A DNA stretch of 64,000 bases from an uncultured Verrucomicrobiae bacterium (GTDB lineage: Bacteria; Verrucomicrobiota; Verrucomicrobiia; Chthoniobacterales; JAFAMB01), in the NCBI GenBank assembly GCA_963813025.1, contig CAWEXO010000013.1, forward strand, positions 448,001-512,000, written 5' to 3'. This document shows, piece by piece, positions 1-7,475 of this stretch. Made by a program: the position numbers and the translations under genes. The number at the start of each line of letters is the position of its first letter. Positions within the stretch are counted from its first letter, which is position 1. A model generated the notes under the pieces. It did not search any database and had not been told where the DNA came from. It worked only from the letters and a program-made list of their open reading frames with translations.

Positions 1-432
1 GCGAGCAAAAGATCAAGAAAAGCCGTTCCTGGAGCAGTTGCTGCAGGAAGGAGCCAGGAAGCTGTTACAGACGGCCATTGAGAATGAGGTGGTCGATTAT
101 ATCCAGTTCCACAAGGATCGAAGGGATGAGCATGGAAAACGATTGGTGGTGCGCAATGGGCGCTTGCCGGAGCGGGAAGTGATTAGTGGAGTCGGTCCGA
201 TCCGGGTTCGCCACGGGTCCGACATCCTGACAAGGGTCGATTTTCCAGTGCGATTCTGCCCAAGTACATGCGGCGCGCTCCCAGCATTGATGCGCTGATT
301 CCAGCCCTTTACCTCAAAAGGATCTCGACCGGAGATTTCAACGAAGCGTTGACAGCGATTTTGGGCGAAGGAGCCAGTGGGCTCTCAGCCACCAATATCG
401 TCAGACTCAAGAGCAGTTAGGAAGCCGATTAC
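1..432 (+). pseudogene. IS256-family transposase, N-terminal fragment
   Basis: Close paralogue of the 3075-4317 copy (LEQLLQEGARKLLQTAIENEV, RNGRLPER). It has a 4-nt deletion near 212, an in-frame TAG at 418-420, and is truncated at about 432. Confidence 0.85.
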
Positions 433-451
433 TGTAGCGCCTCACGTTATT

Positions 452-2125
452 TCCGGGATTTTTCTCAGATTAATTGCGACGGATTTCTCACGCTGTTCAC
501 GGCTCTAGGAGCCGTGACGTAGCTGGTCACGAAGGGTTCTAACCCGCTTTTTGCACCATGTAACGGTTTACGCAGAGGAAAGAGAGAGCCCGGGTTAATG
601 GTAGAGTGTTTTTCCAAAAGCGGGCTAGATGATGCCGCGGAAGCGGCATCTGGGGACACCGCAGGTATGCCGCCGTTGTTTTTCGGGTGCCGGGGTCAGC
701 ACCTCTGTAGGAGCACTAGCCATAGAAGCAAACCAAGCAGGAGCAAAAGAGCTGCTGAAAGGGAAAGCTCGAACTCAACCACAAGCGAATGCGGCGAGTG
801 TTTCGGGTGATGACCGCCCCAATTTTCAGCAGACGCAAGCGAATGGTTCCCACCTGAGCGCGGGCCAGTTCAGAACCGCTTAAGCCCAGACGACGGAGCG
901 CTTCTAAGAGCACATAGGCCGAGGAGGAGAGCAAGAGCCGGAACTGATTCGCCCACCAAGCATGGCAGCTGGTGCGATCACTAAAGAGACCAAGCTGTTG
1001 TTCCTTGATGCGATTTTCTATCTCACCCCGGGCGCAGTAAATCCCATCATAGAGCGCCTGGGCAGACCCTTCCAGATTGGTCAAAACATAACGCGGATTA
1101 GCCCCTTTTGGGCTGTGTTCGGCCTTGGCAATTACCCGTCGCTTCCGGTCCCAAGTTTTGGCCTTGTATTTAAATTGCGTGAACAGTCGCACCTTTTCTC
1201 CGCTCATTTGGTGTTTGCGTTCCGCCCGTTTCTGTAACTTAGCCGAGAGTGCCGCCAAGCGCTCATTCTTGGCCAGTCCGACCAGGTAGTTGACTCCCGC
1301 TCCCTCGCACCAGCGCAGCATCTTCCACCGGCAAAAGCCGCTGTCGGCGCGCAGGGTAATTTTGACCGCCGGCCAGTGTTGGCGCAGCGCCTTTACCAAT
1401 AAGGCCAGGATCGCCCAGGCATGTTTGGCCGAATCGATATTACTCTCGCGCAGATAACTCACCAGCAACCGCTCGCCGCAAAAGACGTACAGCGGTAAAA
1501 AGCAGAAGTCGTAGTAATAACCGTGAAAGTGTCGCCCTTCTTGCAGGCCATGCACCCGATCGTCGGTGCAATCAAAATCCAACACCAGTTCAGCCGGTGC
1601 TGATTCGAAGCTGCCCACGAATTGCTCGAACAACACTTCGTGCATCAACCAAGCTTCCCGGCGTCCAGCACGATTTTCTAAGCGGCACAACGTCGAACAA
1701 CTCGCCAGTTCCTCGGTTCGCTCACTGGCCGTTTGCCAAAGCAAATCTTTGCGCAAAAAATCATGGTCGTTGAGATCTTCGTACCCAAGGGCCAAAGCGT
1801 AAATGCGCTGCCGCAGCATGCTCTCCAACGAATGCTCGATCTTGTCGGGATCGCGCGGGTCGGGTAACCGCTGCGCCAACCCTTTGGTTAATCCAATCCA
1901 GCGATCCACTTGGCGCAGCAAAACCACTCCGCCGTCGCTGCTGACATTTCCTCCTTCGAAATTTCCTTCGATTTTTCTCCCACTAAAGCCTGGCAATTCA
2001 AATCCGAACTCAGTACATTCTGTCATTAGCGAAGTCTCCTGTTGGTTTGTTTGTAACTGATTCATTCCTAACAGGTTCCATAAAAGACTTCGCTACTTTT
2101 TTGTCCTTATGGTGCAATTTCCGGA
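452..2125 (-). mobile_element. IS1380-family insertion sequence (about 1.67 kb)
   Basis: Imperfect terminal IRs TCCGGGATTTTTCTCAG (452) and TCCGGAAATTGCACCAT (minus strand, from 2125) enclose a full transposase. No clear target duplication. Confidence 0.75.
716..2026 (-). CDS. IS1380-family DDE transposase, intact
   Basis: Family motifs FEGGNVSSDGG, GYEDLNDHD, LDFDCTDD, HGYY, RADSGF, YCARGEIENRIKEQQ. The ATG at 2026 is preferred over the TTG at 2065. Confidence 0.93.
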   Translation of the reverse strand: MTECTEFGFELPGFSGRKIEGNFEGGNVSSDGGVVLLRQVDRWIGLTKGLAQRLPDPRDPDKIEHSLESMLRQRIYALALGYEDLNDHDFLRKDLLWQTASERTEELASCSTLCRLENRAGRREAWLMHEVLFEQFVGSFESAPAELVLDFDCTDDRVHGLQEGRHFHGYYYDFCFLPLYVFCGERLLVSYLRESNIDSAKHAWAILALLVKALRQHWPAVKITLRADSGFCRWKMLRWCEGAGVNYLVGLAKNERLAALSAKLQKRAERKHQMSGEKVRLFTQFKYKAKTWDRKRRVIAKAEHSPKGANPRYVLTNLEGSAQALYDGIYCARGEIENRIKEQQLGLFSDRTSCHAWWANQFRLLLSSSAYVLLEALRRLGLSGSELARAQVGTIRLRLLKIGAVITRNTRRIRLWLSSSFPFQQLFCSCLVCFYG

Positions 2126-2506
2126 CTAAGCTCATCGATGATCCTGTTGCGTTGCTCTTCGTTTATGAGGGGAAGTGGAGTTGCCTTAGGCGTCGGATCT
2201 GGGGGCTGAGCTGCGGCCTTCAGACGCGTACGACTGATATTCAAGTCCTCCTCGAAGCGATCCAGTTGTAGGAGATTGGAAAGTTTCAGTGCGCCGATAT
2301 TCCGGCGCGTGGCGCGTATTTCCTTTTGGAGATAGGCGATGACTCGCCTCAAATCAGCAGCGTTAACTAAAGTCGGCCCGGAGGAACTCATACCAAAGCC
2401 GCTCACGGTCGAAGCGCAGGCTTAAATTCTGACCGGTGCACTGGCAGTAAAGCTCGTGGAGCTCGCGCACCAGTTGAGGGCAGTTTTGGATGATGGGCTC
2501 TGTCAT
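2126..2506 (-). pseudogene. Small hypothetical protein, frameshifted and truncated by IS1380
   Basis: ATG at 2506 reads MTEPIIQNCPQLVRELHELYCQCTGQNLSLRFDRERLWYEFLRADF. After a shift near 2368 it continues NAADLRRVIAYLQKEIRATRRNIGALKLSNLL... up to the IS1380 end. Confidence 0.5.
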
Positions 2507-2532
2507 GGGGAGGATAGCTCCTCTGGTTGAGA

Positions 2533-3005
2533 TCAGACAGCGCCCTGCTCCTGCAGCAGGTTAACCAGCCATGGCAAGCGATCGATTCCAGCTTGAACAT
2601 GGACGGCAGTGACATCGACACTGCTTTCAGCGGCTGCGGCTTCCATTGAGCGTTGAGCCAAGTGATTGATGGTTCGGGGCATCCCGCCGCCAGCTTGGAT
2701 TAATAGTTCCAAGGCATCAGGCTGGAACGGGCTAGCGTGGATGCTGGCGCTGCGCAAGCTGTGTTCGACGTATTGGCCACTTTGTTGGGCATTGAGCGCT
2801 CCCAGTTGCAGGCAGTATTCCAGCCGGCTGCGCAGCGGGGCATGAACTCCGAGCTTGAGGTTGGCCAAAAGCCCGTCGTCACCGACCAACATAAGGCTGA
2901 AGGGAACCTTATCAAGCTTGGCACAGGAGAGCAGACGCAGTTCTTCGAGGGCTGCCGCCGAGAGATTTTGGGCATCTTCGATCAAGACTTTCATTTCAAC
3001 AAGGG
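2533..3005 (-). pseudogene. ExeA/GspA-like AAA+ ATPase, C-terminal half (N-terminus lost at IS256)
   Basis: Walker B-like VLIEDAQNL, LEELRLL, LMLVG, PLRSRL and GGMPRTINHLA. No Walker A. The ORF abuts the IS256 IR at 3006. Confidence 0.8.
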
Positions 3006-4422
3006 GAGATATTGTCAAAAGTTGTGTATCGGGTTACTGGCGCATCCTTCGAAAACGATCGCGTTAAATGATGGTTAGGCTGCCTGTTGGGTTTGTTCTT
3101 CGCCATCGACGAATCGAACACCGGTAACTACCTTTGGGATCAATTCGAAGCCCTGGAGCCGGCGCCAATGCTTTTGGGCTTCCAGGCCGAGCTTGAAGAC
3201 CATGGTCAGTGTGGCGATGCGTGAACCGGAACCCTTGGTTCGATGAGTTCGAAGCCGAACGGTAGCGAAGGTTGATTCGATGGGGTTGGTGGTGCGTAGA
3301 TGCGGCCAATGTTGGGCCGGGAAATCGTAAAAAGTGAACAGAACTTCTTTATCTTTCTCCAAGCATTCGCAAGCTTTTGGGAATTTCTTTTGGTAACTGG
3401 AGAGGAACTGATCATAGGCAGCCAGAGCGGCTTTGCGGGTCGGCGCCAGGTACATTTCATGGATCAGTTGCTTGGCTTTGCCCTGGACGCTCTTGGGCAT
3501 TTTATCCAGGATGTTGGCTGTCTTATGCACCCAGCAACGTTGCTGGGCAACGGGGCCATATTCTTCCTGCAACGCGATCCAGGAGCCAAGCGAACCGTCT
3601 CCAATGGCCAGCTTGGGCGCACTGGACAGGCCCTGGCGTTTGAGCTGCCCAAGCACTTCACGCCAGCATTGAGAGCTTTCCCGGTACCCATCGACAACGG
3701 CTATCAATTCCTTGGTGCCATCCTCGGTGGCTCCAATCAAGATCAGCACGCAGGTGCGTTCCTCATCGAGCCGGACGTTGAAATAGACGCCGTCGGCCCA
3801 CCAATAAACGTAGCGCTTCTGGCTCAAATCCCGCTGACTCCATGCCTTGTAAGCGGCTTCCCATCCGGCCTTGAGTCTGACAATGTTCGTGGCCGATAGA
3901 TCCGCTGGCTCCCTCACCCAGGATCGCCTCCAGGGCTTCCGTAAAATCTCCAGTCGAGATCCCTTTGAGGTAAAGGGCTGGGATTAAGGCGTCAACGCTG
4001 GGAGCCCGACGCATATACTTAGGCAGAATCGCACTGGAAAAGCGATCCTTGTCGCGATGTCGGACCCGTGGCTGACGAACCCGGATCGGACCCACTCCGC
4101 TGACTACCTCCCGCTCCGGCAAGCGCCCATTGCGCACCACCAATCGTTTTCCATGCTGATCCCTTCGATCCTTTTGGAACTGGATATAATCGACCACCTC
4201 ATTCTCAATGGCCGTCTGTAACAGCTTCCTGGCTCCTTCCTGCAGTAACTGCTCCAGGAACGGCTTCTCTTCATTTTTTGCTCGCTCTTCAAGCGAGACC
4301 ACTTTATTCTCTGCCACGGGTGCATCCTGATACGGCTTCCATAGTTATGCACCGGCGCCGGCAGAAGGACCATTGCAGGCCACATTATTCATCGGAGCCG
4401 GTACATAACTTGCCCACGACTC
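3006..4422 (-). mobile_element. IS256-family insertion sequence (about 1.42 kb)
   Basis: Ends GAGATATTGTCAAAAGTTGTGTATCGG (3006) and GAGTCGTGGGCAAGTTATGTACCGG (minus strand, from 4422) share the AAGTT.TGTA.CGG core. The flanks are not duplicated. Confidence 0.85.
3075..4317 (-). pseudogene. IS256-family (Mutator-like) transposase with one +1 frameshift near 3900
   Basis: Motifs WADGVYF, LAIGDG, QRCWVHK, LRTTNPIES. One extra base relative to the GASGLSATNIV frame of the other copy. Confidence 0.9.
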
Positions 4423-4444
4423 GACTTGGGGTTGTTAATAACTC

Positions 4445-4613
4445 CAGGCAGTGTCAGAAGGTGATTGGCAGCTTTGCCTGCGGACCGGTACGGTCCGGTG
4501 CATCCCGCTCTACGAGAGCTCAAGAAAGATTACCGGCCGGTTCGGAGGCTTCCGTCCCAAAGTCTGAGAGAACGACATCCCAAGAGGATCCTGTATCAGG
4601 TCGACTCAGGACT
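4445..4613 (+). ncRNA. Putative IS110 bridge RNA (5' hairpin, target-binding loop, donor-binding loop)
   Basis: Stems CAGGCA/TGCCTG (4445-4480), CCGGTA/TACCGG (4485-4536, inner GCTCT-ACG-AGAGC) and CTGAG/CTCAG (4564-4609, inner ATCC-CAAGA-GGAT). Loop segments match the element junctions. Confidence 0.7.
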
Positions 4614-4670
4614 GAGGCCAAGGCTGATGCTGCGCGATACAGCTCCCAAACCTCCAAACGGAAATGCGCA

Positions 4671-5917
4671 ATGTCTTCTCCTGATTCCCTTGTAGCTCAC
4701 TTTGCCGGTCTTGACTGGGCGAAGCAGCATCATTACGTCGTCGTCGTCAACGCTGGTGGCCAGATCGTGACCGAGTTTAGTTTTTCCCATACGCTCGAAG
4801 GCTGGCAAGAGTGGCGCCAGCAAGCAGCCCGCTTTGCCCCTTTAGCAGTGGCAGTCGAAACCAGTCGAGGTGCCGTCGTCGACCAACTGCTTCAGACACC
4901 CGATTGCACGATTTATCCGCTGAACCCCAAAGCCGCTCGAGCGTACCGAAATCGCAAAGCTCCGAGTGGCACCAAGAGCGATCATTTAGATGCGTGGAGC
5001 TTTGCCGACGCCCTTCGTCTTGATGGTTCCACCTGGAAGCCGCTCTCAAAGCAAGATCCCCTTTTGGAGCAGTTGCACCTGCTGTGCCGTGACGAGATCG
5101 CCTTGATTGAAGAGCGCACGGCCTGGTCAATCAACTGATCGCTGCCCTGCATGAATATTATCCTACTGCTCTGGCGGCTTTTGAGGACTGGACGCTGCCC
5201 GCAGCGTGGGCCTTTGTGGAAGCCTTTGCCACGCCACAAGCCTTAGTCAACGCCGGCAAACGCCGATGGGAAAAGTTTTTGCACACCCATAAGCTGGCTC
5301 GACCCAATACCTATCAAAAGCGTCTGGAGCTCTTCGCTAAAGGTACCGAATTTGGTGCTTCGGAGGCTCTCACACTGGCTAAGAGCCGTCTGGCCGTGAC
5401 GCGTGCCAGGCAGCTACGGGTGCTGCAAACGCAGCTGGAGGACTATCGTCAGCAAATCGAAAAGCTCTTTGCGCACCATCCCGATCACGAACTGTTCGGC
5501 TCCTTGCCGGGAGTCGGCCCCAAAATCGCACCCCGCCTATTAGGCGAGCTAGGGGAGGACCGTCATCGGTTCGAGTCCCCTCAGGCTCTGCAATGCTACG
5601 GGGGGACTGCTCCGGTCAGCTATCAATCCGGTCCCGTCCATCAAGTCAGACTTCGCACCCAGTGCAACTTAGTCCTGCGATCTACCATTCACCTCTGGGC
5701 TGACCGAAGCCGACACGCCTGCCCTTGGGCCGACACCTATTACCAGAGCCTTCGAAAAAGGGGCAAAACTCACGCCTGCGCCTTACGGTGCCTAGGCCAG
5801 CGCTGGCTCAAAATCCTCTGGAAGATGTGGCAAACCCGGACCCGCTATGACGCGGAGCTGCATCAGAAACATCAGATCCAACACGGCTCCTGGGTGCTCA
5901 AACTGCACAACGCCTAA
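4671..5917 (+). pseudogene. IS110-family DEDD recombinase/transposase with one -1 frameshift near 5122
   Basis: GLDWAKQHH, AVETSRG, KSDHLDA (D-E-D-D), SLPGVG and APVSYQSG (Tnp-domain Ser). Adding one C to GCC(C)TG restores an ORF of about 415 aa. Confidence 0.92.
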
Positions 5918-6083
5918 CCTTCTATTTCCCATGTCAATAGCTTCACGCACAAATCAACTTGTAAACCAGAGAACATCTTTCTTTTTGGCGTCCTCGAGTG
6001 AGGCTGCCGTGTTTCTTTTTCTTACTGAAAGGATGCGCCTTTCTTTAGCTCCTCATCCACAAAATTCGGTTATAGCTCTCAAC

Positions 6084-6125
6084 AAGGATGCGCCAGCCCC
6101 AATACACAACTTTTGACAATATCTC
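6084..6125 (+). repeat. Solo IS256 right end
   Basis: 6102-6125 ATACACAACTTTTGACAATATCTC is the exact reverse complement of 3006-3029. It is preceded by AAGGATGCGCCAG, which is also shared. Confidence 0.85.
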
Positions 6126-6171
6126 GTCAGGGTGCCTAAAAACCTACAGACAAAAATTGAGGTCAACCAGT

Positions 6172-7475
6172 TCAGGTGCTCCCCATCGTCTGGACAGGTT
6201 CGATGGGTTTGTTAGCTATAAATTTCCTTCAAAAGGAGCGGGGAAAACCAGCCGATTCTTCCGCGCTACCTTTTGTCGGAGTTTTGTAGGGATTCTGTTA
6301 TATACGGCAGCAGGCGACCGATTGGCAAGACTGCTGTGCGGCCGCTGATCGTTGTAGAAGGAGAAGTAGCGACCGATACTCCGCCAGGCCTCGGTGACGG
6401 AGTCGTACTCACGCAAATAGACCTCCTCGTATTTCAGGCTGCGCCAGAGTCGTTCGACAAAAATTTTGTCATAGACTCTACCACGACCGTCCATGCTGAT
6501 AGCAATCTGGTGCTCGGTGAGGACCCCGGTCCACTCCAGACTGGTAAACTGAACTCCTTGATCGGTGTTACTGATCTCTGGTGGCCCGTACTTTTTCAAG
6601 GCCCGGCGGAGAGCCCGCACACAGAAGTCGCTTTCCAAGCTGTTGCTCAGTTCCCATTCCAAGACGTAACGGCTATAACAGTCCATTAAGGCGAAAAGAT
6701 AAACAAAGCCTTCGGCTAACCCGATGTAAGTGATGTCGCTACACCAGACCTGATTGCGGTGCTCGATGAGCAGGCCTTTGAGCAGATAGGGAAAACGCAG
6801 GTGTGCGCCGCCGTTGGAGCTCAGGCGAGGCCTAGGATAAACGGCTTCCAGTCCCATTAGGCGCATCAAGCGGCGGGTTCGCTTGTGGTTGACGGACCAA
6901 CCCTGGTCGTGCAACGCAAGGGTCATCCGGCGTACCCCGTAAAAGGGCCAGCGGGTATAGATAGAGTCGGTCCAGGGCGCTCATCAGCACCAGATTAGCG
7001 CTACTCTCTTCCTGCGCTTGGTAATACCAGCTGCTGCGGGCCACCCCGAGCAAGGGCGCATTGCTGCACGAGGCTCATTTTGTCGGCTGGGCCGATCAGC
7101 TGCCCGCCGCTGCTGGAGCGTAAAGCCCCGTACTTTTTTTTAAGCCACTCCAGTTCCATTTTGAGCCGTCCAATCTGCTCGAACAATTCGCTCTCCTGAC
7201 GTCTGAATTCCTGGTCGCCCACCCGAATCTCCCCGTCGAAAAACCCGCTCAGGCTTTCGACCGCTTGGCGTTTCCACGCCGAAACTTGCGTCGGGTGCAC
7301 GCCGTATTCAGAGGCGATCTCGTTGAGGGTCCGACGTTCTTGAATGGCCTCCAGGGCCACTTGTGCCTTTAGGGTCGCGCTATGCTGTCGTCGGCGCCTC
7401 ACGCCAGCTTTCTTGCCGTTCATCTCCAGGTCTTTTTTCTATCTTAGCGACCTGTCCAGATTGGGGAGCAATTCA
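6172..7475 (-). mobile_element. IS3-family element (orfA from 7423, orfB ending 6216), with extra frameshifts
   Basis: IRs share TGCTCCCCA..CTGGACAGGT. orfA has the HTH KAQVALEAI..GVHPTQVSAWK and an A-run slippery site near 7134-7142. orfB has WCSDITYI, NTDQGVQF and ERLWRSLKYE. Confidence 0.9.

What the first reader, a model, noticed from the sequence alone, without database searches (positions are those of the whole stretch)
4423..5983. IS110 bridge RNA whose guides can be read against the element's own junctions
Seen: the non-coding left end folds into a 5' hairpin (4445-4480) and two stem/loop/inner-hairpin/loop/stem units. Unit 1 (CCGGTA/TACCGG) carries AAGAAAGAT (4522-4530), the exact reverse complement of ATCTTTCTT (5975-5983), which is the DNA right after the element. 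Unit 2 (CTGAG/CTCAG) carries AGAGAACGAC (4567-4576), equal to the right end AGAGAAC (5968-5974) joined to the left end GAC (4423-4425), i.e. the predicted circle junction. Unit 2 also carries CAGGTCG (4597-4603), which pairs with the junction sequence CGACTTG with one G:T. Established: IS110 DEDD recombinases (IS621) use a bispecific bridge RNA with target- and donor-binding loops. Inference: this is a programmable recombinase with target about CCGGTGC|ATCTTTCTT and donor AGAGAAC|GACTTG. Target and donor share only a C at the crossover instead of IS621's CT core, so the geometry may differ from IS621.
Basis: partly seen in the sequence, partly recalled or inferred. Interest (0 to 1): 0.88.

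Follow-up and report, generated by a model that had tools for sequence, protein, structure and literature searches.

The report
Bridge RNA with sliding left guide
This is a jumping gene of the known RNA-guided IS110 kind that lands inside another jumping gene; what is unusual is that in its family one of the four RNA guide segments reads the DNA in either of two positions, one base apart.

Summary
Other genome copies, nine empty sites and an independent metagenome place the element at 4329-5976, between two CT cores (4327-4328, 5977-5978), as in IS621. Target is GGTGCATC-CT-TTCTT in the 5' leader of an IS256; donor is AGAGAACAT-CT-GATAC. AAGAAAGAT is the right target guide plus two handshake bases; the right donor guide is GTATCAG (4593-4599), not CAGGTCG. 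Homologues confirm the fold and the reprogramming: the right guide matches its flank 5/5 in 65 of 86 loops.

New observation: with an ungapped scaffold, the left target guide pairs in the IS621 position in 33 of 98 loops, one base further out in 25 (as in this element) and two out in 1; 39 unassigned; shuffles give at most 4. The state flips among close relatives. The left donor guide sits two bases out. I found no description of this in the papers searched, though IS621 tolerates target insertions off-target. Expression and circles were not seen. The window copy is frameshifted; an intact copy exists. This scan has already noted IS256-targeting IS110 elements on other DNA.

The parts
4329..5976 (+). 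IS110-group element (1648 bp between the CT cores)
   Evidence: junctions of genome copies and empty alleles; joint 4326 to 5977 skipping 1650 with 2 ambiguous letters in run X3
4319..4326 (+). left target GGTGCATC (P0-P7), in the 5' leader of the IS256
4327..4328 (+). left CT core
4329..4333 (+). right donor GATAC (element left tip)
   Evidence: complement of guide 4593-4599; conserved left tip in homologues
4343..4410 (+). long hairpin or inverted repeat 5' of the loops, bounded by DnaA-box-like repeats; function unknown
   Evidence: fold; compensating changes visible in close homologues; motif count
4484..4541 (+). target-binding loop: invariant A 4490, closing stem 4491-4494/4532-4535, 12-nt left loop 4495-4506, hairpin 4507-4519, 12-nt right loop 4520-4531
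4497..4505 (+). left target guide GGTGCATCC, pairing P0-P8 (one base out from the IS621 position)
   Evidence: 7/7 at P1-P7 in the shifted position, 1/7 in the IS621 position (row L031)
4522..4528 (+). right target guide AAGAAAG (pairs CT-TTCTT)
4529..4530 (+). target-loop handshake bases AT (pair donor P7, P6 after top-strand exchange)
   Evidence: definition in PMC11208158
4554..4612 (+). donor-binding loop: invariant A 4560, closing stem 4561-4564/4603-4606, hairpin 4577-4589
4567..4576 (+). left donor guide: AGAGAAC pairs donor P-1 to P5; G wobble at P6, mismatch at P7, C at P8
4593..4599 (+). right donor guide GTATCAG (pairs CT-GATAC)
4600..4601 (+). donor-loop handshake bases GT (G pairs target P7 = C)
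4671..5917 (+). IS110 DEDD recombinase gene, frameshifted near 5123 in this copy (one base shorter than the other copies); 415 aa in the intact copy L001:1064-2308 minus
   Evidence: PF01548 and PF02371; NF033542 above cut-off; pairwise comparison
5968..5976 (+). left donor AGAGAACAT (element right tip)
5977..5978 (+). right CT core
5979..5983 (+). right target TTCTT
3006..6078 (-). host IS256-family element, interrupted by the IS110 element about 10 bases upstream of its GTG start (4317); its transposase is itself in two frames

Best explanation
An IS110-group element that works like IS621. Its left end encodes a bridge RNA; the donor loop pairs with the joined ends AGAGAACAT-CT-GATAC, the target loop with GGTGCATC-CT-TTCTT in the 5' leader of an IS256, and the recombinase swaps top strands 3' of the CT, helped by the handshake bases. 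Shown here from sequence: ends, core, fold, guide-flank covariation, handshake covariation. Taken from IS621 work: expression, circle, chemistry. Variant feature, shown from sequence: the nine left-guide columns are fixed in the RNA, but the DNA pairs with them at P1-P9 or P0-P8 (target; this element P0-P8) and the donor at P-1 onward, while the right target guide never moves. Inferred: the right guides fix the crossover and the left guides only hold the opened bottom strand, with 0-2 bases of slack.
For: Copies and empty sites give the CT core in two unrelated targets; exact 14-mer ending the shifted target occurs 9 times in the genome, the unshifted expectation 0 times; empty site in an independent run. 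Fold: 22 of 26 pairs with two-sided changes over 63 sequences, no gaps in the target loop. Right guide 5/5 in 65 of 86 loops, at most 1 in any shifted frame, shuffle maximum 7. Left guide unambiguous in the IS621 position 33 of 98, one out 25, two out 1; shuffle maximum 4; wobble-aware 47, 29, 2 of 98, shuffle means below 2. Handshake: 86 of 98 and 84 of 86. State needs 17-18 changes on a 60-protein tree, shuffled mean about 20. A second shifted element has 172 near-exact empty sites. Catalytic D15, E63, D104, D107, S320 invariant in 25 proteins; best structural matches ISCro4 and IS621.
Against: No RNA or circle junction seen: the one RNA run laid does not cover 4200-4727 and no go-back joint was listed (contigs only). 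39 of 98 loops unassigned by the strict rule (20 by the lenient one). Copy c2 sits in a REP-like hairpin that matches its own guides poorly (2/7 left, 2/5 right). Empty-site searches for three other shifted elements found none in G012, G031, G065. Loops and ends were picked by my patterns, which inflates pairing and donor-match counts. Protein is only 16-18% identical to IS621 in structural alignment, so equating the scaffold anchors (invariant A plus 7) is an inference.
Confidence: 0.85

Rival explanations
1. Same element, but the shift reflects only local RNA flexing: extra guide bases bulge at the 5' side and the hairpin end frays, so both strands are cut and exchanged exactly as in IS621.
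For: IS621's own right donor guide has a two-base bulge (PMC11208158; PMC11208160); IS621 off-targets tolerate insertions in the target; junctions with known empty sites carry no indel.
Against: In the shifted class the outermost guide column still pairs (P0 19 of 25, versus 7 of 33) and T9 is rarely paired (3 of 25, versus 22 of 33), so the whole guide moves rather than bulging; the hairpin's first pair covaries.
Confidence: 0.5
2. The left guide can slide because this clade joins only top strands; the bottom strand is resolved by host repair or replication, so its cut position is unconstrained.
For: Right target guide never shifts while left guides take three positions; left junctions carry the donor's P6-P7 in 0 of 113 loci; top-strand-dominated integration reported for CazIS110 (10.1101/2025.10.25.684509) and single-strand excision for IS621 (10.64898/2026.08.31.748434).
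Against: IS621 structures show bottom-strand cleavage (PMC11208158). The 0 of 113 count has low power, since handshake selection already disfavours T at target P7 (5 of 113).
Confidence: 0.3
3. One reading: left end 4423, donor AGAGAAC|GACTTG, single C core.
For: The strings exist; the two target guides do overlap at one C in this element.
Against: All copies and homologues start 94 bases further left; empty sites show a duplicated CT; the 4423 context is not conserved.
Confidence: 0.02
4. The one-base shift is an artefact of mis-called left ends or chance matches.
For: Ends in most homologues were called by pattern, without an empty site; low-complexity guides fit several positions.
Against: Empty sites verify the extra base for this element and for L099-L106; the extra base varies (G10, C8, T4, A3) and is matched by the guide in 23 of 25; shuffles give at most 4.
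Confidence: 0.05

Closest known systems
IS621 (E. coli) bridge RNA and recombinase; ISCro4/IS622. PMC11208160 (passages and section 12 read), PMC11208158 (passages and section 12), 10.1101/2025.05.14.653916 (passages), PMC13626964 (passages)
   Same: RNA in the long left end; target loop then donor loop; four invariant A; CT core; 7-base right guides; handshake bases A/U and G/U; donor P6-P7 = AT; DEDD plus Ser.
   Different: 415 aa versus about 326; 16-18% identity; both inner hairpins 4 bp with a 5-base loop; left target guide in two positions; left donor guide two bases out and poorly paired at P6-P7; longer 5' region with repeats.
ISEc21 and IS4321/IS5075, elements that target other mobile elements. 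PMC11187229 (passages; IS4321/IS5075 seen only as a reference title)
   Same: Guide aimed at a conserved site of another mobile element; natural retargeting by a few guide substitutions (ISMch6).
   Different: Target is an IS256 leader; a CT core is duplicated (none reported for ISEc21); retargeting in relative L120 comes with a one-base change of position.
CazIS110 and half-match recombination. 10.1101/2025.10.25.684509 (passages), 10.64898/2026.08.31.748434 (parts 1 and 3 of 6), 10.64898/2026.08.14.744561 (passages)
   Same: Loose left-side constraints and off-guide insertions such as copy c2 fit these reports.
   Different: The passages read describe missing arms, not a full left match displaced by one base.

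Membership tests
IS110 family, IS110 group | DEDD RuvC domain plus Tnp domain with conserved Ser | tested here: met
   PF01548, PF02371; NF033542 166.8 versus cut-off 140; invariant residues; fold matches. Window copy frameshifted, c2 intact.
IS110 family, IS110 group | Long non-coding left end, short right end | tested here: met
   342 bases before the ATG, 59 after the stop.
IS110 family, IS110 group | Insertion at a specific site with a short duplicated core | tested here: met
   CT core at IS256 and REP sites; left core CT in 142 of 144 loci, partly by pattern.
IS621-type bridge RNA | Two stem / internal loop / hairpin units with covarying stems | tested here: met
IS621-type bridge RNA | Four guides: left guides read the bottom strand, right guides the top strand; target guides covary with flanks | tested here: met
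IS621-type bridge RNA | Handshake bases pair with the non-cognate DNA at P7 | tested here: met
   86 of 98 and 84 of 86
IS621-type bridge RNA | All four guides cover the core, left guides starting 7 bases after the flipped A | tested here: not met
   This element's left target guide covers only C8 and starts at P0; left donor guide P9 matches 0 of 87. Met by the 33 unshifted target loops. IS621's own left donor guide also omits P9. This lowers 'identical geometry', not family membership.
IS621-type bridge RNA | Promoter formed across the circle junction and RNA expressed | tested here: inconclusive
   No sigma-70 match in 4250-4700 (linear form only, junction not scanned); no RNA cover, no circle joint.
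IS621-type bridge RNA | RNA-dependent, reprogrammable recombination | not testable with these tools
   needs an assay

The most novel reading that the evidence does not exclude
In this ~415-aa clade the crossover is set only by the right guides and only top strands are joined; the left guides are sliding specificity modules with 0-2 bases of free play, so target length (14, 15 or 16 bp) is programmable without changing scaffold or protein. The clade would be natural evidence that bottom-strand exchange is dispensable in bridge recombination.
Probability: 0.3. Interest if true: 0.72.

Novelty: new variant of a known kind. Interest (0 to 1): 0.5.

Why it matters
Bridge recombinases are being developed as editing tools, and design and mining both assume guides at fixed columns around the core. 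Here about a quarter to a third of natural target loops use a left guide displaced by one base, so fixed-column models would misread them and off-target prediction should allow it. It also gives a direct test of an open dispute, whether IS110 integration needs bottom-strand exchange: two relatives (this element and L120) share scaffold and right guide, differ by five transitions in the left guide, and hit two sites of the same IS256 leader in different positions.

Tried and rejected
Rfam scan of 4300-6200: no match. An AT core (CCGGTAC at 4398 as left target) was considered and dropped: that stretch is inside the element in all copies. Single-sequence PDB search: 0 hits; the profile found IS621 and ISCro4. 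Idea that c2 was placed by a sister RNA aimed at the REP: no such loop in G000 (genome 80% complete); 3 pattern hits in 43 family genomes, none beside an IS110 gene; left unexplained. One RNA using two positions: only L096 suggests it (5/7 two bases out, versus 5/7 unshifted at three sister sites with identical flanks); in the other 10 multi-site guides the on-guide sites kept one position; weak. Empty-site searches negative in G012, G031, G065; G063 gave 10 sites with one base between the arms and none with zero or two, but with T or A rather than the G seen at insertions. Reads: 4 of 21 listed runs laid, all contigs; runs with small shares give no evidence on habitat or expression. The careful tree did not finish; the quick tree was used. 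Literature searches for a shifted left guide, for IS110 with IS256 and bridge RNA (0 papers) and for IS110 with DnaA box (listing only, nothing relevant by title or abstract start) found no description; figures and bioRxiv supplements (for example Figs S9-S10 of 10.64898/2026.08.14.744561, Fig. S12 of 10.64898/2026.10.21.760802, Extended Data Fig. 10c of PMC11208160) were not visible and may show it.

Full report
Observation. The quoted strings lie at the quoted places and 4423-4640 folds into two stem-loop-hairpin units (z -1.6). The ORF carries PF01548 and PF02371 in two frames. It is one base shorter near 5123 than copy c2, which encodes an intact 415-aa protein. Contigs of runs X1 and X3 carry the extra base, so the break is copy-specific or an assembly error.

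True ends. The genome holds the window copy, c2 (C13:18.5-20.15 kb), c3 (C13:351-354 kb, interrupted), a 3' fragment c4 and two left-end fragments on C8. Window and c3 read GGTGCATC-CT-GATAC at the left and AGAGAACAT-CT-TTCTT at the right; the empty allele GTGCATCCTTTCTT occurs 9 times, in IS256 leaders. c2 lies in a REP-like repeat whose empty allele is also split at a CT. Run X3 has the empty site as a joint skipping 1650 bases with two ambiguous letters. The core is therefore CT, as in IS621 (PMC11208158).

Guides. 4593-4599 is the right donor guide and G4600 its handshake with target P7. 4567-4573 matches the element's right tip, and 4497-4505 matches the left target.

Homologues. Searches gave 197 loci including duplicates. 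After dropping loci with less than 38% identity, truncated 5' ends or no parsed loops, 159 remained, 136 after removing repeats: 98 distinct target loops with a left flank and 86 with a right flank, first locus taken per loop (for this element that was the off-guide c2, so it counts as unassigned). An alignment of 63 RNAs has no gap across the target loop and four invariant A; 22 of 26 proposed pairs show two-sided changes and RNAalifold finds the same core stems. The sequences were chosen by a stem-requiring pattern, so pairing percentages are inflated. The right target guide matches P10-P14 fully in 65 of 86 (shuffle maximum 7). Handshake P7 pairs in 86 of 98 (donor loop with target) and 84 of 86 (target loop with donor). 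A sister element in the same genome has a different target loop that matches its own site in the IS256 right end, with 16 empty copies.

The variant. In IS621 the left guides start seven bases after a flipped A (numbering). Here that position holds in 33 of 98 target loops; in 25 the DNA pairs one base further out, in 1 two out, and 39 are unassigned; shuffles give at most 4 per position. A wobble-aware rule gives 47, 29, 2 and 20 unassigned. The same nine RNA columns pair in both classes: P9 matches in 22 of 33 unshifted and 3 of 25 shifted loops, P0 in 7 of 33 and 19 of 25. The right target guide never shifts. The left donor guide sits two bases out: P-1 to P5 match in 86-87 of 87 (partly by pattern, but variants at P0 and P5 track), P6 50, P7 29, P8 76, P9 0. 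The class is not clustered on a 60-protein quick tree: 17-18 changes against about 20 shuffled, at least 8-9 forced by strong branches. It is thus set by the guide sequence, not by protein lineage (inference). L120 (82% identical protein) has the same right guide and a left loop differing by five transitions, and sits unshifted at a second site of the same IS256 leader. Empty sites verify the extra base for this element (9 versus 0) and for L099-L106 (172 sites within one mismatch); three other searches found none.

Mechanism. Most likely IS621-like: circle, RNA from the left end, top-strand exchange at CT driven by handshakes (established for IS621, inferred here). IS621 cuts bottom strands at a fixed place in the left-guide duplex. 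A sliding left guide then means either scaffold flexing with unchanged cuts (about 0.5) or a moved or unused bottom cut (about 0.3), the latter in line with top-strand-dominated integration reported for CazIS110 and single-strand excision for IS621. Sequence alone cannot separate them. Inserting about 10 bases upstream of the IS256 start probably gives a multi-copy, low-cost site and separates that transposase from its upstream signals (inference).

Against and unknown. No expression or circle was seen (contigs only). c2 matches its guides poorly and no responsible loop was found. The protein is distant from IS621, so anchor equivalence is inferred. Durrant et al. note that some IS621 off-targets tolerate insertions in the target, which foreshadows the effect. 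The passages read in 10.64898/2026.03.19.712850 and 10.64898/2026.10.21.760802 do not describe a displaced left guide; figures and bioRxiv supplements were not visible.

Verdict. New variant of a known kind; interest 0.5.

Noticed in passing
window 4343-4443 and 5933-5942; homologous left ends: Repeats resembling a DnaA box (consensus recalled, not from a call): 93 of 98 left ends have at least one site within one mismatch, 166 sites against 5.6 shuffled and 0 in coding controls. They could bind DnaA or the recombinase, or form the base of an RNA hairpin; relatedness inflates the count.
   Followed up: partly
L001 (G000:C13:18498-20151): Intact copy c2 sits off-guide in a REP-like hairpin and has G instead of A at donor P6, like sister elements at C13:99208, C11:72158 and a lone right end at C5:314155, all followed by TCCAG. 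Possibly a half-match insertion into a sister's junction; unproven.
   Followed up: partly
L004 (G000:C3:82.9-84.5 kb); empty site at window 6103-6116: Sister IS110 (57% identical protein, same donor) whose guide matches the right end of IS256, so both ends of IS256 are targeted in this genome.
   Followed up: yes
L120:1148 and window 6032-6045: A third IS110 site in the same IS256 leader; the corresponding site in the window is empty.
   Followed up: partly
window 38-7423: Nest of mobile elements: DDE_Tnp_1_4 transposase (716-2065), IS256 (3006-6078) apparently inserted in another IS256 right end, IS3-type pair (6216-7423), next to a polysaccharide gene cluster from about 8008 (cluster named by recall from the translations).
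   Followed up: no
G000:C13:93076 and about ten other places: A second, distant IS110 family (29% identity) with at least 10 near-identical copies.
   Followed up: no
L124:2745-2870: Right end duplicated in tandem (about 55 bases), consistent with an event at the left-donor half site.
   Followed up: no
L005 (G000:C13:100.6-100.7 kb): Sister element whose target loop is two bases shorter than the clade standard and does not match its own site.
   Followed up: partly
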